DNA from: an uncultured Clostridia bacterium
GTDB taxonomy: Bacteria > Bacillota > Clostridia > Oscillospirales > Acutalibacteraceae
Length of the DNA stretch: 54,085 nt
Direction of reading: 5' to 3'
NCBI GenBank assembly: GCA_946627725.1
Contig: CAMOVW010000001.1
Span: 1 to 54,085, forward strand
Made by a program: the position numbers and the translations under genes. Positions 88 to 54,085 of this stretch are shown piece after piece (position 1 is the first letter of the stretch; the number at the start of each line of letters is the position of its first letter). The notes under the pieces are model-generated. The model was not told the origin of the DNA, searched no databases, and saw only the letters and a list, made by a program, of their open reading frames with translations.

Positions 88-987
88 ATGAAATACACCG
101 AGAAAACCGCCGCCGCCGTGCTCAATTCCCTGCTCCGCGCCGCGCGGAAAACGCCCCGCGAAAGCCTGCACGACGCCTGGACGGATGAACAAGGCCGGAC
201 TTGCGCAATGGATGGATACCGCGCCTATTGTCTGAACGCCGCCCCCGCCGGGATGAAAGCAACTTGGACGAGCCGCCCCGATCCGGCCCGCGCTGCCGCC
301 CGCGCCGCTGATAATAATAAAATCCTGGCCCACGTTTTCAACGCCCTGGACGCCGGAAAAACGGTTGAAATGCCAGCCCCGGACGCGGACGCCGTGAAAT
401 CATTCATGGCCGCCGACAAGGAGCAGGGCGGGCGCGGGGTATATGACCTTGGAAAAGACTTTCCCGCCGTGAACGTCAAGTATTTGTGGGATATAATCAG
501 GCTTTTCCCGGTTGCGAAATGGTATGTTCTGGCCGATCCTTACGCCCGCATGGTTAGCCCCGTTTTCATCGTCGCCGACGAGGGCCGCGCCTGCCTGCTG
601 CCGATCCGGCAGGATAACAAGCCCTGGAAAGCCCCGGAAGCGCCCGCCCCGGCCCCTGCCGAAAAGCCCGCCGCCGATGAACGCCCCGAAAACATTCCCG
701 CCGATGAAAACCCCTGGAAGTGTGACTATTTTGTGTACTCCCGCCCCACCGGCGAAAAGCGTTTCCTGTTGACAAATCTCCGCGAGGGCACCGTGGGCAT
801 GAAAAAGTTTTACGCCCCGATGTACAAGGAAAAGCACCTGGAGCAAATCAAGGAAATGCTTGACCTTGCCGCCGCTGAAAACCCCGGCGCGGTTTTCCAG
901 CTCCGCAAGCTGGACGGGAAAAAGGTTGTATATACCGCCGTCCCGACGGTTACGCCGGAAATGTTCGCCGCAATGATCGCCGCTTGA
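88..987 (+). CDS. early protein with sliding-clamp (DnaN)-like N-terminal region; function unknown
   Basis: ORF 70..987 trimmed to ATG 88 behind GGAGGCCAACACC. Clamp-like strings AMDGYRAY, FPAVNVKYLWDII and ACLLPIR, then a Pro/Ala linker (ERPENIP) and a C-terminal domain. Confidence 0.65.
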   Translation: MKYTEKTAAAVLNSLLRAARKTPRESLHDAWTDEQGRTCAMDGYRAYCLNAAPAGMKATWTSRPDPARAAARAADNNKILAHVFNALDAGKTVEMPAPDADAVKSFMAADKEQGGRGVYDLGKDFPAVNVKYLWDIIRLFPVAKWYVLADPYARMVSPVFIVADEGRACLLPIRQDNKPWKAPEAPAPAPAEKPAADERPENIPADENPWKCDYFVYSRPTGEKRFLLTNLREGTVGMKKFYAPMYKEKHLEQIKEMLDLAAAENPGAVFQLRKLDGKKVVYTAVPTVTPEMFAAMIAA

Positions 988-1040
988 TTATTCCATCCGC
1001 CCGCCCGTGGGCATTGTACGCGGGCAAGGAGGCCGCCCCG

Positions 1041-1457
1041 ATGAAGTATTATTATTTATATATCCCCGCTTTGGTTTTCTTCCTGCTGCCCCTGCTCAAC
1101 GGCCTGCGTGCTTCCGTCGCGGCCCGCGCCGCTGCCCGCGAGAAGGAAGCGAAGCGCGCCGCCGCTGCCGCTGCGAAGGAGGCCGCCGAGCAGGAGAAGA
1201 AAGCCCGCCAGGAGGCCCGCGCCGCCGCTGCCACCGATCCGGCCCAGGAGCCGAAGCGCAAGCGCGGACGCCCGCGCAAGAATCCCCCGCCGGAGCAACG
1301 CCCCGAAATCATTTTGCCAGAGGAAGCGCCCGCCCCCGTCCAGGAGGAGCCGCCCGCCGTCCAGATTATGACGATCCAGCGCGCAAGCATTTTCCCGAAT
1401 GTTGACAAGATGGAGCCGCCCTGCACCCCGGAAGAATTTGCGAAAAAATTTTGCTGA
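1041..1457 (+). CDS. membrane-anchored Ala/Lys-rich protein with AT-hook-like KRKRGRPRKNP
   Basis: ORF 984..1457 trimmed to ATG 1041 behind GGAGG. N-terminal hydrophobic helix YLYIPALVFFLLPLL, a charged coiled region and the linker QRPEIILPEE. Confidence 0.6.
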   Translation: MKYYYLYIPALVFFLLPLLNGLRASVAARAAAREKEAKRAAAAAAKEAAEQEKKARQEARAAAATDPAQEPKRKRGRPRKNPPPEQRPEIILPEEAPAPVQEEPPAVQIMTIQRASIFPNVDKMEPPCTPEEFAKKFC

Positions 1458-1477: not shown

Positions 1478-1530
1478 TTGACAAACGGGGTACACCGTGT
1501 TACAATCCCAAACGTGGACGGGGTACACCG
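1478..1530 (+). promoter_or_regulatory. early promoter P1 with two direct ACGGGGTACACCG repeats
   Basis: TTGACA 1478-1483, 17-nt spacer, TACAAT 1501-1506. The 13-mer occurs at 1485-1497 and 1518-1530. Phased A-tracts lie upstream (1440-1475). Confidence 0.75.
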
Positions 1531-2233: not shown

Positions 2234-2347
2234 CGCCGCAAAATCATTCCGCCCGATGATGGCCCGCCGGTTACGGGCCGAAACGATCCTGCCGGGGTCG
2301 TCGCGGAAAACCAACGCCGCAAGATTATTTTCAAGGAGGCCAACACC
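2231..2347 (+). repeat. long-form intergenic element, copy B (two hairpins 2261-2279 and 2283-2301)
   Basis: Shares AACGCCGCAAAATCATTCCGCCCGATGATGGCCCGCCGGTTACGGGCCGAAACGATCC...GCGGAAAACC...AAGGAGGCCAACACCATG with the copies at 53294 and 54003/1. Confidence 0.8.
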
Positions 2348-3238: not shown

Positions 3239-3289
3239 TCAATAATTAGCCCGCCCGTGGGCATATACGCGGGCAGAAGGAGGTACACC

Positions 3290-3553
3290 ATGATTTTTCA
3301 CATTACGCCGAACATCTGCGAAACTGCCCTTGTCGTCGATGAATTGCCGGAAATCGGCAAACCGTTCTGCTGCGGCCCGTATATCGCCGCCCGCGTCCTG
3401 TCCTTGGAGCCGTGCCCGTACACTTGCCCGCAAGACGAGCACCAGGAAGCCCTGCAATATGCTGTGTGGCGTGTCAACTATGAACCCGTTTCCGACCCGC
3501 ACGATGATTATTTCTACGTCGCCATTCATGAGCCAGAATCCGAAACCATATAA
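3290..3553 (+). CDS. hypothetical early protein
   Basis: ORF 3257..3553 trimmed to ATG 3290 behind GAAGGAGGTACACC. Confidence 0.6.
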   Translation: MIFHITPNICETALVVDELPEIGKPFCCGPYIAARVLSLEPCPYTCPQDEHQEALQYAVWRVNYEPVSDPHDDYFYVAIHEPESETI

Positions 3554-3807: not shown

Positions 3808-3836
3808 TTGACAAACGGGGTACACTAATTTATAAT
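3808..3836 (+). promoter_or_regulatory. early promoter P2 (one ACGGGGTACAC copy in the spacer)
   Basis: TTGACA 3808-3813, 17-nt spacer AACGGGGTACACTAATT, TATAAT 3831-3836. Confidence 0.75.
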
Positions 3837-4561: not shown

Positions 4562-4578
4562 TCCGACCAAACCATTCT

Positions 4579-4617
4579 AACGTGCATCTTTCCCGAAAAG
4601 GTGCGCGTTATTTTTAT
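4579..4617 (+). terminator. intrinsic terminator closing the plus-strand early operon
   Basis: 13-bp stem AACGTGCATCTTT / AAAGGTGCGCGTT (two G-U pairs), 5-nt loop, then ATTTTTAT. Confidence 0.7.
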
Positions 4618-6685: not shown

Positions 6686-8161
6686 TCACCCCCTAACTTC
6701 CGCATACTTGCCGCTGATCCAGGCGACTTGCTTCTTGTACACCACCGCGTGCCAGCCGTTTTCTGCGGTCGCCACCCATTCCAGCATCGTACCCTTGGAA
6801 ACGGCGGTGATCCGGCTAAAGTTCGTGCCATTTCCTACGCGCACATTTACGCTGCTCGCAGTCACGACAACCGTCTTTCCCTTCGGTTCCTCGCCGGTTT
6901 CCGGCTTGTCGGGTTCGGGCTGGGTGGGTGTCGGCTGGATGGTGGTGCCTGCGGAATAGTTGGGGCGTCCGTACCCTGCGATACGGTTATAGTTGAGCTT
7001 GTATTTCTTCTTGGCGACGCCTCCGCCATTGGCGACAACGCCGCTCGCGGTGCTGGTGTTGCCCTCTACGGTGTACACATAGGAGTTATCCACCTTGTAC
7101 ACAAGGCCGGTGTGAGAAATGGCGCTGCCACCGATCCCGTCCGCCGGATAGAAGAAAATCTGGTCGCCGGGTTCCGGGCTTTCAAACAGTCTGCCCTTGG
7201 CCTTGTAATACTGGCGGCTGTATTTGCATCCGGCCCCGCAGCTTTTCGTCGGCTGGCACAGCAGCGCGCGCCCGTCGTCCACGCCGTAAGCCTGCACGAA
7301 GCACCAGTCCACAAACACGTCGCACCAGGCGACGCCCTGCTTCCTGCCGTTGTAGAATCCGGGAATGGCGTCCATGTCGCGGGCGTACTTGGTGTAGTTC
7401 TTCTTGCCCGCGTTCCCCGTCTTGCTGTCCAGGTCTTTGTTGCTGGCCTTTTCCAGATAGCCCTCCTCGGCTAAAGCGATGTCGATTACCTTCTGCCGGT
7501 CAAATCCCATGTTTCCCGCCTCCTCGTTTTCGTCGGTGTTGTCCTCGGTTTCCTCGGTGTCCTCCGCCTCCTGGGTGAACCATTCCAGAGGCTTGTCGCC
7601 GTAGAGCATATCCAAATCCACGTTGCCGCTGATCCCGTTTACGCGGCCCTTGCTGGTGTATTGCCAAAGGTCGCAGTAGTATTTCGGCGCGTAGGATTTC
7701 GCGGGCACGCTGCCGTCGTTCTTCCCCCAATGCGGAATCCACATGATGTCACAAATGGAGATTGCCTTTCCTGCCCATTTGTAGCGGGTGTTGATGTACA
7801 GGCCGATCTTTTCACAGCCCAGCTTTCGCAGCTCCTCCAGGAAAGCGACGCATACGGCCTCGGTAGTCGTCGCCGTCTGCGCGCTGTATTCGATGTCCGC
7901 GATGTAGAAAAGCGGCCTGCGCTTCGCCTTGTTCGCGCACTCCACGAAGAACCAGGCTTCTGTTCTGGCCGCCTCGGCGGTTCCGGCCTTGACGTAGTGA
8001 TACGCGCCGTATGGAATCCCGCAGGCTTCCGTGTATTCAAGATAGCGCTTGTCCGCGTTGCCGCCGACGCTGGCGCGGAAAATCGCCATCTCCAGATCGT
8101 CCCTTGCCTTGCTCCAGTCGATAGCCCCCTGATAATGGCTGATGTCTGCAATCTTTTTCAC
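6686..8161 (-). CDS. endolysin: GH25 muramidase + CHAP + SH3-like wall-binding domains
   Basis: N-terminus ADISHYQGAIDW (GH25). Middle AWCDVFVDWCF...ISHTGLVY (CHAP Cys/His). C-terminus VNVRVGNGTNFSRI...GWHAVVY (SH3-like). GTG start behind GGAGGA. Confidence 0.9.
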   Translation of the reverse strand: MKKIADISHYQGAIDWSKARDDLEMAIFRASVGGNADKRYLEYTEACGIPYGAYHYVKAGTAEAARTEAWFFVECANKAKRRPLFYIADIEYSAQTATTTEAVCVAFLEELRKLGCEKIGLYINTRYKWAGKAISICDIMWIPHWGKNDGSVPAKSYAPKYYCDLWQYTSKGRVNGISGNVDLDMLYGDKPLEWFTQEAEDTEETEDNTDENEEAGNMGFDRQKVIDIALAEEGYLEKASNKDLDSKTGNAGKKNYTKYARDMDAIPGFYNGRKQGVAWCDVFVDWCFVQAYGVDDGRALLCQPTKSCGAGCKYSRQYYKAKGRLFESPEPGDQIFFYPADGIGGSAISHTGLVYKVDNSYVYTVEGNTSTASGVVANGGGVAKKKYKLNYNRIAGYGRPNYSAGTTIQPTPTQPEPDKPETGEEPKGKTVVVTASSVNVRVGNGTNFSRITAVSKGTMLEWVATAENGWHAVVYKKQVAWISGKYAEVRG

Positions 8162-8164
8162 GCC

Positions 8165-8314
8165 TTATCCTCCTTTTTTGCGCTTTCGTCGTATTCCGTG
8201 CGGATAGTGCGTCCATGCGATGCCGACAATGCAAACCACGCTGAAAAGAATAAATAAAAGGGCCAGCGCCCCTATAAAGATCGCTGCTTCCAGCAGTTCA
8301 CGCGGCAATTTCAT
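8165..8314 (-). CDS. 49-aa single-TM protein (holin-like), absent from the ORF track
   Basis: Hand translation MKLPRELLEAAIFIGALALLFILFSVVCIVGIAWTHYPHGIRRKRKKGG. ATG 8314 overlaps the RT stop as ATGA. Ends 3 nt before the endolysin GTG. Confidence 0.55.
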   Translation of the reverse strand: MKLPRELLEAAIFIGALALLFILFSVVCIVGIAWTHYPHGIRRKRKKGG

Positions 8315-9654
8315 AAATAGACCACCTCCGCGCTGGCGCACCAGTCGTCATAGCGCGCCCTGATGTCCTCCTCCATCCCGTCGAACGGCTCCACGCCTCG
8401 CACAACGAGCATTTCCACGTCGTAGTCTGTCGCGCCATCCTCCGTCGACAGTGGCAGCACATGGGGCCGCAGATACACGTCCACCGTGCCGTCCTCCTGC
8501 TCCTGGATGGTATAAAAATGCCGCCTCCCCGGCGGCTGATCGCTCTCAATATTCATATTGTCGCACCTTTGAAGTACAAAGTGTTCCTCGATCCAGCGGA
8601 TCATGTTGTGACCGTTACAATGCTTGCACATCCCGATATAGCAGATCACGCTTTCCATCGCCGCGTCATAGCTGATTTGCCATGCGGCAAAGGCCTCCAT
8701 GATGAAGCGCAGGCTCCGCTTGATGTGCGTCGTGGTCTTTCGCCTCATGCGGATGCCGTGCGGCGTCAGCAGATAGCCCACGAACTCAACCGGGGCCGTC
8801 GCCTTTTGGATTCGGCTTTTCGGGCTGATGTCAAGCAGCAGCTCGTCCCGTAGGAAGGTTTCGATGGCGGCGAATATTCGCTTTGCGTTTTCTTTGCCTT
8901 TGACAAGGATGCAGAAATCGTCCATGTAGCGCACATAGTAGTGTACTTTCAGCGTGCGCTTGATGAATTGATCCAGCTTATCCAGAAACAGGTTGGCCGT
9001 TTCCTGGCTCGTCAGGTTGCCGATGGGCATACCCACATCATAGAGCCGCCGCCATCGTGGGCAATCATCCGGCTTCATCCCCGGAGGCAGGCCGAAAGGC
9101 ACGTCCGGGTTATTGATGATCGTCCGCATAAGCCAGCGAAACCAGGCGTCGTCTGATACCTCGTCGTAGGTATTCAGCACCTTCCCGTGTTCAACCCGGT
9201 AAAAGTATTTGCTGATGTCGCCCTTGATAAGATACCATTCGTCCGCGTCCGGCTTCCGGCTGATCTTCTGCTGCCAGTTTTGCAGGCACTCCGCCGCTGG
9301 CAGCGTTCCTTTGCCCTTCCGGCACCCGTAGCTGTGCGTGATATATCGCTTGTCCAGATATGGGTTGATTTGCCGGTAGATGGCCCATTGCACAACGCGA
9401 TCCCGAAAGCCCAGCGCCATGACGAGCCTCGGCTTCGGGTAGCGTACATAAAATTCCCGATATGGCCCCACCTTGTAGGTCATATCCAGTAGCTCTTTCT
9501 GTATCTGGTGCAGATTCGCGCCCAGGTTGAAAGAGAAGTCCAAAACCTCATTGCGATACCGTTTCCCCTTTGCGGCGTCCCGGTAAGCGCCCATCAGGTT
9601 TTCAAAATCACAGATGCGGTCTTTCAGATTGTGCAGCCCTTCCAAAACATTCAC
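8311..9654 (-). CDS. diversity-generating retroelement reverse transcriptase
   Basis: RT motifs PIGNLTSQ and YVRYMDDF. Sits downstream of TR. Start uncertain: GTG 9654 is favoured, although the ORF stays open to 9870. About 85-95 extra C-terminal residues. Confidence 0.9.
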   Translation of the reverse strand: MNVLEGLHNLKDRICDFENLMGAYRDAAKGKRYRNEVLDFSFNLGANLHQIQKELLDMTYKVGPYREFYVRYPKPRLVMALGFRDRVVQWAIYRQINPYLDKRYITHSYGCRKGKGTLPAAECLQNWQQKISRKPDADEWYLIKGDISKYFYRVEHGKVLNTYDEVSDDAWFRWLMRTIINNPDVPFGLPPGMKPDDCPRWRRLYDVGMPIGNLTSQETANLFLDKLDQFIKRTLKVHYYVRYMDDFCILVKGKENAKRIFAAIETFLRDELLLDISPKSRIQKATAPVEFVGYLLTPHGIRMRRKTTTHIKRSLRFIMEAFAAWQISYDAAMESVICYIGMCKHCNGHNMIRWIEEHFVLQRCDNMNIESDQPPGRRHFYTIQEQEDGTVDVYLRPHVLPLSTEDGATDYDVEMLVVRGVEPFDGMEEDIRARYDDWCASAEVVYL

Positions 9655-9917
9655 CCCGCCCTGTGAACTGCCGCGCGTGACGTGTTCCGTCAGGCATAGA
9701 CTGTAATGCCCCAAAATCGCTTTAGGGTATGCTGCGGACAGCCATAGCCCGTTGCCCTTCCGGGCGCTTCGCGGTGATTCCTGCCGCGTGTTTCCTGCGG
9801 AGCGTTCTTGCCGCCGCGCGTCAGGATTTTTGTTTAGCCCCTTCGGGCCGAGGAAACGCACCCCTCCCATCAGCGGATGGCCGCTGATTCGTAATCTCGC
9901 GGCGCGTAATATATGCT
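9655..9917 (-). ncRNA. DGR spacer region between TR and RT (probable part of the TR-containing RNA)
   Basis: No RBS-supported coding. Hairpin ATCAGCGG-CCAT-CCGCTGAT on the minus strand near 9870-9890. The position matches the Sp region of known DGR RNAs. Confidence 0.5.
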
Positions 9918-51678: not shown

Positions 51679-51731
51679 TTGACAAACGGGGTACACCGTG
51701 ATAATATGGGCACCGTGGACGGGGTACACCG
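51679..51731 (+). promoter_or_regulatory. early promoter P3 with two direct ACGGGGTACACCG repeats
   Basis: TTGACA 51679-51684, 17-nt spacer, TAATAT 51702-51707. The 13-mer occurs at 51686-51698 and 51719-51731. A-tracts upstream. Near-duplicate of P1. Confidence 0.75.
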
Positions 51732-52019: not shown

Positions 52020-52119
52020 CAAGCCGAAACGCGGCGCGGGCCGCGTCCGCCGGGGATCGCCTCCCGGCGCTGATGATGGCAGGCGAACACAACACCGAAT
52101 TTTTAAGGAGGCCAACACC

Positions 52120-53016
52120 ATGAAGGATCTGTATTCTGAAATCACCAACGGTATCATTGAACAGCTGGAGCAGGGCGTTATCCCGTGGAAAAAGCCCTGG
52201 ACGGGCGTCAATTCCGGCGCTATCAGTCACGCGACGGGCCGCGCGTATAGCCTGCTGAATCAGATGTTGCTTGCCCGCCCCGGTGAATATATCACCTTCA
52301 ATCAGTGCAAGCAGGAGGGCGGCAAGGTCAAGAAGGGCGCGAAGTCAAAAATTGTCGTGTTCTGGAAGGTGCTGCCCCGCGAAAAGAAGGACGCCGACGG
52401 AAACATTATCACCAACGCCGACGGCAAGCCGATCATTGAAGGGCTGCCCGTGCTCCGTTACTTCCAGGTGTTTCATATCGACGATTGCGAAGGGATCGCC
52501 CCGAAATGGGAAAACAAGCTGCCCGCCGTCGCAAGCCCCGACGAACGCGCCGAAAATGTTTTGATGGATTATGTACGCCGGGAAAACATTCGGCTTGAAA
52601 ACGTGATAGGCGACAAGGCGTATTATTCCCCCTCCTGTGACCTTATCCGGCTGCCGATCATGGAGCAATTCGACAGCACCGCCGAATATTACGGCACCGC
52701 GTACCATGAAGCAACCCATAGCACCGGCCACGCAACGCGGCTAAACCGTTTCACCGGGGACGCTGCCGCCGCCGCTTTCGGCTCCGAATCGTACAGCAAA
52801 GAGGAGCTTGTCGCGGAAATCGGCTCCGCCTGCTGCCTGCATGAATTGGGCCTTGAAACGCCGTCCAGCTTCAAAAACTCCGCCGCCTATATTCAGTCCT
52901 GGCTCCGCGTTTTGAAGGACGACAAGCGAATGATTATCAGCGCCGCCGCCCGCGCCGAAAAGGCCGTCAAGCTGATTTTCAACATCACCGACAGCAAGCA
53001 GGCGGACGGGGAATAA
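52120..53016 (+). CDS. ardC: ArdC-like antirestriction protein (ssDNA-binding N-domain + zincin-like protease domain)
   Basis: GVIPWKKPW N-terminal motif and HEATHSTGH (HExxH) in the C-terminal half. Confidence 0.85.
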   Translation: MKDLYSEITNGIIEQLEQGVIPWKKPWTGVNSGAISHATGRAYSLLNQMLLARPGEYITFNQCKQEGGKVKKGAKSKIVVFWKVLPREKKDADGNIITNADGKPIIEGLPVLRYFQVFHIDDCEGIAPKWENKLPAVASPDERAENVLMDYVRRENIRLENVIGDKAYYSPSCDLIRLPIMEQFDSTAEYYGTAYHEATHSTGHATRLNRFTGDAAAAAFGSESYSKEELVAEIGSACCLHELGLETPSSFKNSAAYIQSWLRVLKDDKRMIISAAARAEKAVKLIFNITDSKQADGE

Positions 53017-53065: not shown

Positions 53066-53296
53066 ATGAAAAAGCTGCTTGCAATCGTCGCCGCCCTGGC
53101 CCTTGTCGCCGCTGCTTCATTCGCCGCCGGACGGGCCGCCGGTATCCGGCACGCGATAGAGGACGCCGAAATATACACGGTTGAATGTTACGATCCCGAC
53201 AACCCCGACGAAAACGCCCGCCCCGACGGCACCGATCAAACAATCTATATCGAGCTGGACGGGGAAATATACGAGCACGGCATGTATCAGGGATGA
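53066..53296 (+). CDS. small membrane-anchored/secreted protein
   Basis: ORF trimmed to ATG 53066. Begins MKKLLAIVAALALVAAASFAAG. Confidence 0.6.
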   Translation: MKKLLAIVAALALVAAASFAAGRAAGIRHAIEDAEIYTVECYDPDNPDENARPDGTDQTIYIELDGEIYEHGMYQG

Positions 53297-53413
53297 ACGC
53301 CCCGAAATCATTCCGCCCGACGATGGCCCGCCGGTTACGGGCCGAAACGATCCCGCCGGGATCGTCGCGGAAAACCGCAACGCATCGAAATCATTTTGAA
53401 GGAGGCCAACACC
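53294..53413 (+). repeat. long-form intergenic element, copy C (hairpins 53325-53343 and 53347-53365)
   Basis: Contains the same 55-mer as the window ends (53327-53381). Confidence 0.8.
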
Positions 53414-54001
53414 ATGAAAACCGTTTTCACCTTTACCGCCGACAGCATCACCGTCAAGGGCAAGACTTTCCCCGCTGAATACTCCGTTACCCCGTCCGGC
53501 TCCGTGTTCGTGTTCGTCCAGGAGGACGGCAAGCAGGAAAAAACCCGTATTCGCTTCAACCCAGATCATGCCGAATACGCCGCCGCCCTGGCCGCCGCCC
53601 GCAACGAGCAGCCCGCCCCCGCTGCCGATGAACGCCCCGAAATCATTCCCGCCGCCGATCCGGCCCCCGCTGCCGTGGAAGAAACGCCCGCCGCCCCCGC
53701 TGCCGATCCCGCCCCCGTCGCCGACGGAAAAGCGACGCGCGGCCCCGTCCCGGAAAAGACTTTCATCGGCGAAAGCATCACCGGCAACGGCTGGAAAATC
53801 CTTTTTGACGGCGAAACGAGCCGCACACGGATTATCTTTGAGAGCAAGCCCACGGACGCCGCCCGCGCTGCCCTGGACAAGGCCGGTTTCTTCTTCTCCG
53901 CCGCTATGAATAGCTGGAATAAGAAATTGACCTTCAAGGCATACCGCGCCGCGCAAGCCCTGGCCGGTGAATTGTCCGCCCTGTACCCCGCCGCCGCTTG
54001 A
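53414..54001 (+). CDS. hypothetical early protein (beta-rich N-domain, Pro/Ala linker, GFxxS…W C-domain)
   Basis: ORF trimmed to ATG 53414. Linker ADERPEIIPAADP. The C-terminus DKAGFFFSAAMNSWNKKL resembles plasmid/phage DUF3560-type domains. Confidence 0.65.
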   Translation: MKTVFTFTADSITVKGKTFPAEYSVTPSGSVFVFVQEDGKQEKTRIRFNPDHAEYAAALAAARNEQPAPAADERPEIIPAADPAPAAVEETPAAPAADPAPVADGKATRGPVPEKTFIGESITGNGWKILFDGETSRTRIIFESKPTDAARAALDKAGFFFSAAMNSWNKKLTFKAYRAAQALAGELSALYPAAA

Positions 54002-54002
54002 C

Positions 54003-54085
54003 GGCGCGGGAACATTCCGCCCGACGATGGCCCGCCGGTTACGGGCCGAAACGATCCCGCCGGGATCGTCGCGGAAAACCGCAAC
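54003..54085 (+). repeat. long-form intergenic element, copy A (continues at nt 1-87 if the ends are joined)
   Basis: Hairpins at 54029-54047 and 54051-54069. Followed at nt 56-87 by the conserved leader of gene 88..987. Confidence 0.75.

What the first reader, a model, noticed from the sequence alone, without database searches (positions are those of the whole stretch)
53294..53413. Two-hairpin intergenic element in three copies with wobble-compatible substitutions
At 2231-2347, 53294-53413 and 54003-54085/1-87, the short leader is expanded by about 65-80 nt. The insert contains GGCCCG-CCGGTTA-CGGGCC, then GAAAC, then ACGATCCC-GCC-GGGATCGT. It is flanked on both sides by the 17-nt motif, so it looks like a duplication.
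Copy B differs in the second stem at two positions (C to T in the 5' arm, A to G in the 3' arm). Both changes turn Watson-Crick pairs into G-U pairs on the + strand transcript only, which argues for an RNA structure.
A related CCGAAAC-plus-hairpin (ACGCGGC-GCGG-GCCGCGT, 52029-52046) precedes ardC.
No U-tract follows, so these are not simple terminators. Candidates are antitermination or processing signals, protein-binding RNA, or a mimic of some host RNA repeat.
Basis: partly seen in the sequence, partly recalled or inferred. Interest (0 to 1): 0.65.

Follow-up and report, generated by a model that had tools for sequence, protein, structure and literature searches.

The report
Hammerhead ribozymes between phage early genes
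The three-copy "two-hairpin" element is a self-cleaving hammerhead ribozyme with one unusual letter in its catalytic core, placed between early anti-restriction-type genes of a rumen phage; this arrangement is already described for prophages, so it is a well-explained member of a known kind.

Summary
Three near-identical elements lie on the + strand, and one of them spans the artificial junction of a circular 54,030-bp assembly.

The two hairpins are stems II and III of a type I hammerhead ribozyme. "GAAAC" is the conserved G12-A13-A14 plus the first two letters of stem III.

The "related hairpin" before ardC is a canonical type II hammerhead (Rfam, 56.5 bits).

About 270 distinct relatives were recovered from phage, genome and metagenome contigs. 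They keep all three stems and the pseudoknot through many compensatory changes. They sit about 45 nt upstream of start codons and form same-strand arrays about one gene apart.

All three window copies carry C instead of U at core position 4. This minority variant (about 4-8% of distinct copies) recurs in at least nine stem contexts and probably slows cleavage. No Rfam hammerhead model reported these type I copies.

Most likely role: cutting the early anti-defence transcript into gene-sized mRNAs, as Perreault et al. proposed in 2011. Cleavage itself could not be tested here.

The parts
53311..53372 (+). Type I hammerhead, copy B (the finding). Stem I 53311-53316 / 53367-53372. Core C3-A9 53317-53323 (CCGACGA, with C at position 4 = 53318). 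Extra U 53324. Stem II 53325-53330 / 53338-53343, loop II 53331-53337. G12-A13-A14 53344-53346. Stem III 53347-53354 / 53358-53365. C17 = 53366. Predicted cleavage between 53366 and 53367.
   Evidence: Sequence. Own covariance model gives 84.9 bits, E 2e-19. The helices are supported by covariation in homologues. The hammerhead fold is within 0.8 kcal/mol of the MFE.
53373..53377 (+). 3' strand of the pseudoknot (AACCG). It pairs with loop II CGGUU (53332-53336).
   Evidence: Helix 3. The central pairs covary: UA 26, CG 20, GC 9 at columns 26/66. This helix was not used to select the sequences.
54015..54076 (+). Type I hammerhead, copy C, identical to B across the ribozyme. C4 = 54022. Cleavage between 54070 and 54071 (equal to 40|41 in the duplicated start of the window). 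Pseudoknot tail 54077-54081 (equal to 47-51).
   Evidence: Model score 78.2 bits.
2247..2308 (+). Type I hammerhead, copy A. Core CCGAUGA (C4 = 2254, N7 = U2257). Stem III carries two G-U wobbles (U2287-G2297 and U2290-G2294). C17 = 2302, cleavage between 2302 and 2303. The pseudoknot is 4 bp (2269-2272 with 2309-2312).
   Evidence: Model score 81.0 bits. The hammerhead fold is the MFE.
52022..52088 (+). Canonical type II hammerhead (CUGAUGA, GAAAC, GUC) upstream of ardC. Predicted cleavage between 52047 and 52048.
   Evidence: Rfam RF02276, 56.5 bits against a gathering score of 37, E 4.5e-9.
53296..53312 (+). Upstream copy of the 17-nt leader motif. It overlaps the stop codon of gene 53066-53296, and its last two letters begin stem I. 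Other copies beside the ribozymes: 53379-53395, 2232-2248, 2313-2329, 53-69.
   Evidence: 14 matches, all + strand, 0.12 expected.
53396..53416 (+). Conserved Shine-Dalgarno leader TTGAAGGAGGCCAACACC followed by the ATG at 53414-53416. The start codon lies 47 nt after the cleavage site. The same layout occurs at 88 (47 nt) and 2348 (45 nt).
   Evidence: In the wider family, the median distance from cleavage to start is 45 nt.
52120..53016 (+). ardC-like gene (ArdC N-terminal domain plus a zincin-like metallopeptidase domain). It lies between the type II hammerhead and type I copy B.
   Evidence: Pfam PF08401 at 8.7e-25 and PF18818 at 1.3e-36. PHROG 'anti-restriction protein' at 1.7e-70.
51679..51707 (+). 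Promoter-like site (TTGACA-17-TAATAT, with TG) that could start the ribozyme-punctuated transcript. Further promoter-like sites lie at 1478-1506 and 3808-3836. The next + strand terminator-like site is at 4578-4610.
   Evidence: These are consensus matches only.

Best explanation
Each copy is a type I hammerhead self-cleaving ribozyme inside the + strand early transcript of a temperate tailed phage of rumen Clostridia.

Fold (shown by comparison with homologues):
- As the intergenic leader is transcribed, UUCCGC pairs with GCGGAA to form stem I.
- Loop II (CGGUU) pairs with AACCG just 3' of stem I, which docks stems I and II.

Chemistry (established for hammerheads, not tested here):
- The core CCGAYGA ... 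GAAA then catalyses attack of the 2'-OH of C17 on the next phosphate.
- The RNA is cut after GUC. This leaves a 2',3'-cyclic phosphate upstream and a 5'-OH on GCGGAAAACC....

Consequences (inferred):
- The cut falls 45-47 nt ahead of the next start codon. With the type II hammerhead before ardC, four cuts would divide about 4.4 kb of early transcript into pieces of one or two genes.
- Each upstream piece ends in the stable stem II/III hairpins.
- Each downstream piece begins with GCGG, which can fold back on a nearby CCGC.
- This would uncouple the stability and translation of neighbouring anti-defence-type genes.
- The C at core position 4 in all three copies probably makes them slower than canonical relatives, not dead.
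For: Identity:
- Every conserved hammerhead letter except U4 is present, in type I order, with GUC before the cut.
- The same intergenic slot in related phages holds canonical CUGAUGA or CUGACGA versions. Some have identical stems (L003:6483). Others have wholly different but still paired stems (L005:1778).

Structure:
- On 60 distinct homologues, 90.7% of cells are paired against 73.9% in shuffles.
- The covariation score is 0.431 against 0.125, and 0 of 500 shuffles reach it.
- Sliding the partners drops pairing to 28-42%.
- Stems I, II, III and the pseudoknot all show changes on both sides.

Check free of selection bias:
- The search pattern fixed only core and stem I letters. Of 241 distinct hits, 225 have a stem II and 212 a stem III of at least 4 bp. 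After shuffling, the numbers are 21 and 36.

Energetics:
- The hammerhead fold is the MFE for copy A and within 0.8 kcal/mol of it for B and C.

Context:
- 77% of 273 distinct copies have an SD plus start codon within 80 nt after the cut, against 12% of random positions.
- 31 loci have three or more copies on one strand, with a median spacing of 780 nt.
- No locus has copies on both strands.

Evidence that the C4 variant is maintained:
- It appears in 18 of 221 ascertained copies and 2 of 52 bystander copies, in at least 9 different stem contexts.
- Against an ~84% identical relative, the two C4 ribozymes are 97-98% identical while flanking genes are 81-83% identical.
- The only differences among the window copies are N7 and two wobble-compatible stem changes.

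Literature:
- Clustered prophage hammerheads flanking single genes, including ardA, cleave in vitro and in E. coli. Pseudoknots are common in them. A U4C viroid variant keeps enough activity in vivo (PMC3088659).
- An extra U between A9 and G10.1 raised the cleavage rate in a viroid hammerhead (PMC3705267).
Against: - No direct evidence of cleavage. The RNA-type runs are held only as contigs. Several contigs span 53366|53367 and 54070|54071. This shows uncut RNA or contaminating DNA, and the repeats break the assemblies anyway.
- U4 is part of the CUGA turn. Mutants in that turn had low activity in a deep mutational scan (PMC9901934), and U4C 'considerably decreases activity in vitro' (PMC3088659).
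- No Rfam hammerhead family is listed as a type I match for these copies. The one hammerhead row over copy B is a partial Hammerhead_II alignment of 15.2 bits, well below the gathering score of 37. Rfam also misses the canonical relative in L005, so this is a limit of the models.
- For copies B and C the MFE is an alternative fold that uses a GCGG-AAAA-CCGC hairpin.
- The high conservation of the copies could reflect gene conversion between repeats, not selection for catalysis.
- The downstream consequence (stabilising or destabilising the mRNA) is unknown.
Confidence: 0.75

Rival explanations
1. Dead relics. The three copies descend from hammerheads, but U4C has abolished cleavage. They persist as recently duplicated or gene-converted intergenic repeats with no catalytic role.
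For: - All three copies carry the non-consensus C4.
- Mutations in the CUGA turn give low activity (PMC9901934), and U4C lowers activity in vitro (PMC3088659).
- Contigs from RNA-type libraries span the cleavage sites.
- Copies B and C are identical, which fits recent duplication or conversion.
Against: - C4 recurs in at least 9 unrelated stem contexts whose helices are otherwise intact.
Among the 52 copies not selected by a search pattern the counts are small: U4-to-C 2, G12-to-A 2, U4-to-G 1.
- The C4 ribozymes are more conserved than the neighbouring genes.
- The differences among the window copies fall only at N7 and at wobble-compatible stem positions.
- A U4C viroid hammerhead still works in vivo (PMC3088659).
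Confidence: 0.17
2. The primary role is at the DNA level. The ~115-nt unit (17-nt motif, ribozyme, leader) is a repeated junction where homologous recombination swaps, deletes or fuses early-gene cassettes. The RNA activity is incidental.
For: - The motif flanks the ribozyme as a direct repeat and occurs 14 times, only in the early region.
- The gene upstream of copy B is replaced by an unrelated one in the ~84% relative, while the ribozyme stays 98% identical.
- The motif also occurs in frame inside three ORFs. In L004 and L006 the homologue of gene 53414 is fused to the upstream ORF through it.
Against: - The covariation and G-U-only substitutions show selection on the RNA fold, not on DNA identity.
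- Many homologues lack the upstream motif copy.
- Recombination at repeats is a by-product expected of any dispersed repeat.
- This role does not exclude the ribozyme function.
Confidence: 0.05
3. A non-catalytic structured RNA: a binding site for a phage or host protein, an antitermination signal, or a substrate for a host RNase.
For: - Stable hairpins lie in a leader.
- There is no terminator tail.
Against: - The conserved single-stranded letters are exactly the hammerhead core (CYGANGA, GAAA, UC).
- The variable letters are exactly the helices and N7.
- A structurally different hammerhead (type II) fills the equivalent slot before ardC.
Confidence: 0.02
4. A mimic of a CRISPR repeat (an RNA anti-CRISPR) or of another host RNA repeat.
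For:
- RNA anti-CRISPRs that mimic repeats do exist (PMC10651486, abstract seen).
Against: - GAAAC is accounted for as G12-A13-A14-A15.1-C15.2.
- The family spans Clostridia, Paenibacillus, cyanobacteria and rhizobia. The core is constant while the hairpin sequences vary freely, the opposite of what repeat mimicry needs.
- Not tested: comparison with CRISPR repeats of the host, because no host array was in hand.
Confidence: 0.01

Closest known systems
Clustered bacterial/prophage hammerhead ribozymes (Perreault et al. 2011, PMC3088659), including the Agrobacterium tumefaciens triple arrangement flanking ardA
   Same: - Several hammerheads of mixed type (I and II) lie on one strand.
- They flank single genes or short gene blocks of a (pro)phage.
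- They sit next to an anti-restriction gene.
- A Watson-Crick pseudoknot supplies the tertiary contact.
- The proposed role is processing long phage transcripts into gene-length mRNAs.
   Different: - The anti-restriction gene here is ardC, not ardA.
- All three type I copies carry U4C.
- Activity was not measured here, whereas the cited arrays were shown to cleave in vitro and in E. coli.
Rfam hammerhead families (clan CL00010: Hammerhead_1, _3, _II, HH9, HH10)
   Same: - The element at 52022-52088 is a full-length match to Hammerhead_II above the gathering score.
- The type I copies share the core and the three-way junction.
   Different: - None of the models reports the type I copies. The canonical relative in L005 is also missed in a 131-nt search at E up to 10.
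- This bacterial type I family has a short open stem I, an extra U after A9, and a loop II/3'-tail pseudoknot. It lies outside what the models capture.
Natural hammerheads with core deviations: the viroid U4C variant (Ambros & Flores 1998, as cited in PMC3088659) and the CChMVd (+) hammerhead with an extra residue between A9 and G10.1 (PMC3705267)
   Same: - The same two deviations occur here: C at position 4 and an extra nucleotide (U) before stem II.
- The precedents show that both are compatible with function. U at the extra position even increased the rate.
   Different: - Those are type III viroid ribozymes that process RNA genomes.
- Here the setting is a DNA phage mRNA.
- The C4 form recurs in many lineages (about 4-8% of distinct copies).
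glmS ribozyme (mRNA fate set by the 5'-OH product; PMC6765202 and general knowledge of RNase J1)
   Same: - It is a self-cleaving RNA in a 5' leader.
- Its cut creates a 5'-OH end that decides the stability of the downstream mRNA.
   Different: - glmS needs a metabolite cofactor and destabilises its mRNA.
- Here no ligand pocket is evident.
- The 5' end of the product can be sequestered in a hairpin in 150 of 273 copies, against 18 expected. This would argue for protection, but those letters overlap the pseudoknot.

Membership tests
Hammerhead ribozyme, type I | Three helices around a junction, in the order stem I 5' strand, core, stem II hairpin, GAAA, stem III hairpin, cleavage site, stem I 3' strand | tested here: met
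   Read directly from the sequence. Covariation is seen in all three helices. Pattern hits chosen without regard to stems II and III are 88-93% paired. The fold is the MFE or near it.
Hammerhead ribozyme, type I | Core letters C3, G5, A6, G8, A9 (N7 free), G12-A13-A14, the A15.1-U16.1 pair, and H17 | tested here: met
   All are present in the three copies: C-GA-N-GA, GAA, A-U closing stem III, and C17 in GUC. N7 is C in copies B and C and U in copy A.
Hammerhead ribozyme, type I | U at core position 4 (the CUGA turn) | tested here: not met
   C is found at 2254, 53318 and 54022. This is a recurrent minority variant of the same family (20 of 273 distinct copies). A functional U4C viroid precedent exists (PMC3088659). 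I therefore file the copies as hammerheads by descent with a variant core, catalytic rate unknown.
Hammerhead ribozyme, type I | Tertiary contact that docks stems I and II (a loop-loop contact or a pseudoknot) | tested here: met
   Loop II CGGUU pairs with AACCG 3' of stem I. The central three pairs are 92-97% paired and covary (UA/CG/GC) in sequences not selected for this helix.
Hammerhead ribozyme, type I | Descent from, or positional equivalence with, canonical members | tested here: met
   The counterpart of copy A in the ~84% relative has CUGAUGA with the same stems (L003:6483). The slot before the homologue of gene 53414 in L005 holds a canonical copy with different stems.
Hammerhead ribozyme, type I | Score at or above the gathering threshold of an Rfam hammerhead model | tested here: not met
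   No type I hit appears. Over copy B there is only a partial Hammerhead_II alignment of 15.2 bits, against a threshold of 37. Canonical relatives also fail, so this is uninformative for membership.
Hammerhead ribozyme, type I | Site-specific self-cleavage giving a 2',3'-cyclic phosphate and a 5'-OH | not testable with these tools
   RNA runs were available only as assembled contigs.
Hammerhead ribozyme, type II (element at 52022-52088) | Full-length match to the curated covariance model above its gathering score | tested here: met
   RF02276, 56.5 bits against 37, model positions 1-66 of 66, E 4.5e-9.
Clustered prophage hammerhead arrays (Perreault 2011) | Several ribozymes on one strand, flanking single genes or short blocks, within a phage or prophage | tested here: met
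   Four ribozymes lie across about 4.4 kb on the + strand. The genome encodes terminase, portal, tail sheath, tape measure, endolysin and a serine integrase. In relatives, arrays reach 6 ribozymes per 3 kb, always on one strand.
RNA anti-CRISPR / CRISPR-repeat mimic | Sequence and structure match to a CRISPR repeat of the host | not tested
   No host array was available. The reading was rejected on other grounds: the conserved letters are those of the hammerhead core, and the hairpin sequences vary freely.

The most novel reading that the evidence does not exclude
The U4C copies are deliberately slow or conditional ribozymes that set how much of the early anti-defence transcript stays polycistronic, acting as a timing or dosage device. 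Together with the 17-nt leader they also form a portable junction at which early-gene cassettes are exchanged. Occasionally the ribozyme is lost and the leader is read through as a linker, fusing cassettes into multi-domain proteins.
Probability: 0.15. Interest if true: 0.55.

Novelty: new member of a known kind. Interest (0 to 1): 0.3.

Why it matters
What self-cleaving ribozymes do in bacteria and phages is still called an open question (PMC6155905, PMC6765202). This locus adds no new principle, but it is a clean example: four ribozymes punctuate an operon of ArdC-, DUF6908- and related early genes.

Three practical points follow:
- The bacterial type I family with a short stem I, an extra U and a pseudoknot is invisible to the Rfam models. 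Standard phage annotation will miss it. In Flavonifractor phage Castelnaud it lies under a CDS called on the opposite strand.
- The U4C core is a recurrent natural variant in phage hammerheads and deserves a rate measurement.
- The family occurs in cultured phages (Flavonifractor phage Castelnaud, Salisaeta phage SSIP-1), where the function could be tested genetically.

Tried and rejected
- Rfam at gathering and E-value thresholds, on the whole window and on 151-nt and 131-nt stretches. It found the type II ribozyme. It never reported the type I copies as type I hammerheads, and it missed the canonical relative in L005.
- BLAST of the early region against GenBank phages gave only an irrelevant primase hit.
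- BLAST of the element alone found two cultured phages. It also gave 46 weak hits on Sinorhizobium megaplasmids covering query positions 59-99 only. I did not follow those up.
- Protein-based locus retrieval gave few loci. DNA patterns built on the core were far more productive.
- RNA evidence: two run searches and two contig lay-downs. Only assembled contigs were available. They break at the repeats and may contain DNA, so they say nothing for or against cleavage.
- A naive pseudoknot test that permuted tails was not discriminating, because GGNN/NNCC is shared by most copies. I replaced it with column-wise pair counts.
- Whole-leader folding z-scores are unremarkable on both strands (-0.54 and -1.17). 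Thermodynamics alone would not have flagged the element.
- Considered and rejected: intrinsic terminator (no U-tract), CRISPR-repeat mimic, and tRNA-like or other Rfam families (only chance-level hits).
- The apparent excess of U at N7 among C4 copies (15 of 20, against 106 of 252) was left as an observation, because the copies are not independent.

Full report
**1. The observation**

The window is a circular assembly. Its last 55 nt equal its first 55 nt, which gives a 54,030-bp circle of 58% G+C.

The 29-nt core of the element occurs exactly three times, at 2261, 53325 and 54029. All three are on the + strand, and none is expected by chance. The third copy spans the junction.

The divergent copy is the one at 2231-2347:
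- It has U2290 instead of C and G2297 instead of A. Both changes create G-U pairs that exist only in the + strand RNA.
- Its third difference, U2257 instead of C, falls on the one core position that is free to vary.

The 17-nt motif AACGCCSCRAAAWCATT has 14 matches at 2 or fewer mismatches. All are on the + strand and in the early region, against 0.12 expected. It flanks copies A and B on both sides. Upstream of copy C it is degenerate.

**2. What the element is**

Rfam places a full-length type II hammerhead at 52022-52088 (56.5 bits against a gathering score of 37). This is the "related CCGAAAC-plus-hairpin" before ardC.

Read with that in mind, the three copies are type I hammerheads. Copy B reads as follows:

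| Part | Sequence |
|---|---|
| Stem I, 5' strand | UUCCGC |
| Core | CCGACGA |
| Extra nucleotide | U |
| Stem II and loop II | GGCCCG-CCGGUUA-CGGGCC |
| G12-A13-A14 | GAA |
| Stem III | ACGAUCCC-GCC-GGGAUCGU |
| Cleavage-site nucleotide | C17, then the cut |
| Stem I, 3' strand | GCGGAA |

The predicted cuts are:
- type I copies: 53366|53367, 54070|54071 (= 40|41) and 2302|2303
- type II ribozyme: 52047|52048

The only departure from the consensus core CUGANGA is C at position 4.

No Rfam hammerhead model reports these copies as type I hammerheads. The only hammerhead-family row over copy B is a partial Hammerhead_II alignment at 53340-53391 (15.2 bits, E 0.86, well below the gathering score of 37). 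The models also miss a fully canonical relative, so this is a gap in the models, not evidence against identity.

**3. Homologues**

In a related IMG/VR phage, the slot before the homologue of gene 53414-54001 holds UUCCGC-CUGAUGA-U-GGGCCGGG...CCCGGCCC-GAAAC-GGGCU...AGCCCG-UC|GCGGA. This is a canonical hammerhead with entirely different but still paired stems.

I then ran pattern scans built on the core:
- They returned 13 viral loci.
- Hosts include many Clostridia and Oscillospiraceae MAGs, Paenibacillus, Desulfosporosinus, cyanobacteria and rhizobia.

A structure-aware scan of the 1.76 Mb fetched found 273 distinct type I copies, against 1 in reversed-sequence controls.

Pair counts on a 60-sequence alignment:

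| Measure | Observed | Control |
|---|---|---|
| Cells paired | 90.7% | 73.9% in shuffles; 28-42% when partners are slid |
| Covariation score | 0.431 | 0.125 in shuffles (0 of 500 reach the observed value) |

Helices I, II and III all show changes on both sides. So does a fourth helix, a pseudoknot between loop II (CGGUU) and AACCG just 3' of stem I. Its central pair occurs as UA (26), CG (20) and GC (9).

Stems II and III were part of my selection filter, so I also made a check free of that bias. The search pattern fixed only core and stem I letters. Of its 241 distinct hits, 225 have a stem II and 212 a stem III of at least 4 bp. After shuffling, the numbers are 21 and 36.

The hammerhead fold is the MFE for copy A and within 0.8 kcal/mol of it for B and C, not counting the pseudoknot. 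A covariance model built from the alignment finds only these three copies in the window, at 78-85 bits.

**4. The C at position 4**

- Among copies ascertained with a pattern that allowed C or U, 18 of 221 have C. Among "bystander" copies not selected by any pattern, 2 of 52 have C.
- No other single core change is seen more than twice.
- C4 occurs in at least nine unrelated stem contexts, with intact helices.
- Against an ~84% identical relative, the two C4 ribozymes are 97-98% identical while the flanking genes are 81-83% identical. The counterpart of copy A in that relative has U4.
- A 97.6% identical contig from a sheep-rumen Clostridia MAG also has C4 in both copies it holds.

The literature points both ways. 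U4C "considerably decreases activity in vitro" yet supports viroid infectivity (PMC3088659). Mutants of the CUGA turn were of low activity in a deep mutational scan (PMC9901934).

The extra U after A9 has a precedent. U at that position raised the cleavage rate of a viroid hammerhead (PMC3705267).

My reading is that these are attenuated but maintained ribozymes. Gene conversion among the repeats is an alternative explanation for their conservation.

**5. Context and likely function**

The genome is a temperate tailed phage. It encodes:
- terminase, portal, protease, tail sheath and tape measure;
- endolysin, a DNA methyltransferase and a large serine integrase.

Sequencing runs that hold it come mostly from sheep and cattle gut, with single pig-gut and unspecified gut metagenomes.

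The ribozymes lie in a + strand early unit:
- It begins at a promoter-like site at 51679-51707.
- It has no + strand terminator-like site until 4578-4610.
- It encodes ArdC (ArdC N-terminal domain plus a metallopeptidase domain), a DUF6908 protein and several unknowns.

Across the family:
- 77% of copies have an SD plus start codon within 80 nt after the cut, against 12% of random positions. The median distance is 45 nt; in the window it is 45-47 nt.
- 31 loci carry three or more copies on one strand, with a median spacing of 780 nt.
- No locus has copies on both strands.

Most genes that follow a ribozyme have no Pfam match. The few matches include DUF6908, DUF932, DUF3560, LPD18, Amidoligase_2, YodL and ArdC. 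From my own knowledge, not tested here, these are domains typical of phage and conjugative-element conflict genes.

This is the arrangement Perreault et al. (2011) described. They found clustered hammerheads flanking single genes in prophages, including a triple array around ardA that cleaves in vitro and in E. coli. They proposed that long phage transcripts are processed into gene-length mRNAs (PMC3088659). Later reviews still call the function open (PMC6155905, PMC6765202).

One added inference concerns the 5' end of the downstream product. Its first four letters (GCGG) can pair with a CCGC 3-15 nt further on in 150 of 273 copies, against 18 expected. This could shield the 5'-OH end. Those letters overlap the pseudoknot, so the signal is not independent.

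**6. What could not be shown**

Cleavage itself could not be tested. RNA-type runs that contain the sequence are held only as contigs. The contigs break at the repeats, some span the predicted sites, and they may include DNA.

Cultured phages with the same family offer a route to experiments:
- Flavonifractor phage Castelnaud: 77.5 bits, on the strand opposite the annotated CDSs.
- Salisaeta phage SSIP-1: two intergenic copies.

**7. Verdict**

- The element is a hammerhead ribozyme array of a kind already described. Its particular features are a recurrent U4C core variant and a family architecture that current Rfam models do not detect.
- It is a new member of a known kind, of modest interest.

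Noticed in passing
window 680-696, 1297-1313, 53631-53647 (also 388-404, 2 mismatches): The 17-nt leader motif also occurs inside ORFs (genes 88-987, 1041-1457, 53414-54001). There it is read in frame as ...ERPEI/NIP... within Pro/Ala-rich linkers. In L004 and L006 the homologue of gene 53414 is fused to the upstream ORF through the same motif. This looks like former intergenic leaders turned into inter-domain linkers, that is, cassette fusion.
   Followed up: partly
window 999-1026 and about 3249-3275 (+): A second repeated hairpin, GCCCGCCCGTGGGCAT(T/A)(G/T)TACGCGGGCA, lies immediately before the Shine-Dalgarno sequence of genes 1041-1457 and 3290-3553. It is not a hammerhead: the model gives only 7.5 and 11.2 bits.
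   Followed up: no
window 1478-1506 and 3808-3836 (+): Two near-consensus sigma-70-like promoters share the extended sequence TTGACAAACGGGGTACAC. This suggests a common regulator-binding or promoter module inside the early region.
   Followed up: no
window 8311-9870 (-): A reverse transcriptase gene (PHROG 1423, E 1.7e-110) sits among the late genes, next to the endolysin gene (6686-8161). It may belong to a diversity-generating retroelement. No template or variable repeats were looked for.
   Followed up: no
window, leaders listed (e.g. 73, 1556, 2333, 52105, 53051, 53399 on +; 40062, 38779 on -): An unusually invariant translation-start context, AAGGAGGCCAACACCATG, is shared by at least ten genes on both strands. 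It is conserved beyond what a Shine-Dalgarno sequence needs.
   Followed up: no
L259 (Flavonifractor phage Castelnaud, ON453903.1) 1214-1287 (+): A canonical type I hammerhead (77.5 bits; stem I covaries to CCCGU/ACGGG) lies on the strand opposite to all annotated CDSs of the region, under a 'hypothetical protein' CDS at 901-1374 (-). Either the gene calls or the strand assignment there need revisiting.
   Followed up: partly
all type I copies in fetched loci: None of the Rfam 15 hammerhead models reports this bacterial type I family, canonical members included. Rfam-based annotation will systematically miss it.
   Followed up: yes
family-wide: Copies with C at core position 4 have U at N7 more often (15 of 20) than copies with U4 (106 of 252). 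This could be coupling within the U-turn or shared ancestry. The copies are not independent.
   Followed up: no
window 53066-53296 against L003: The small gene upstream of ribozyme copy B, which encodes a protein with a signal-peptide-like N-terminus, is replaced by unrelated sequence in the ~84% identical relative. The adjacent ribozyme stays 98% identical, so a mosaic junction sits at the ribozyme.
   Followed up: partly
plasmid collection, Sinorhizobium meliloti megaplasmids (e.g. NC_003078.1 777581-777622): 46 records give a weak 42-nt match (85.7%) to the stem III, cleavage-site and tail part of the element, in unannotated sequence. This may be a rhizobial hammerhead or chance.
   Followed up: no
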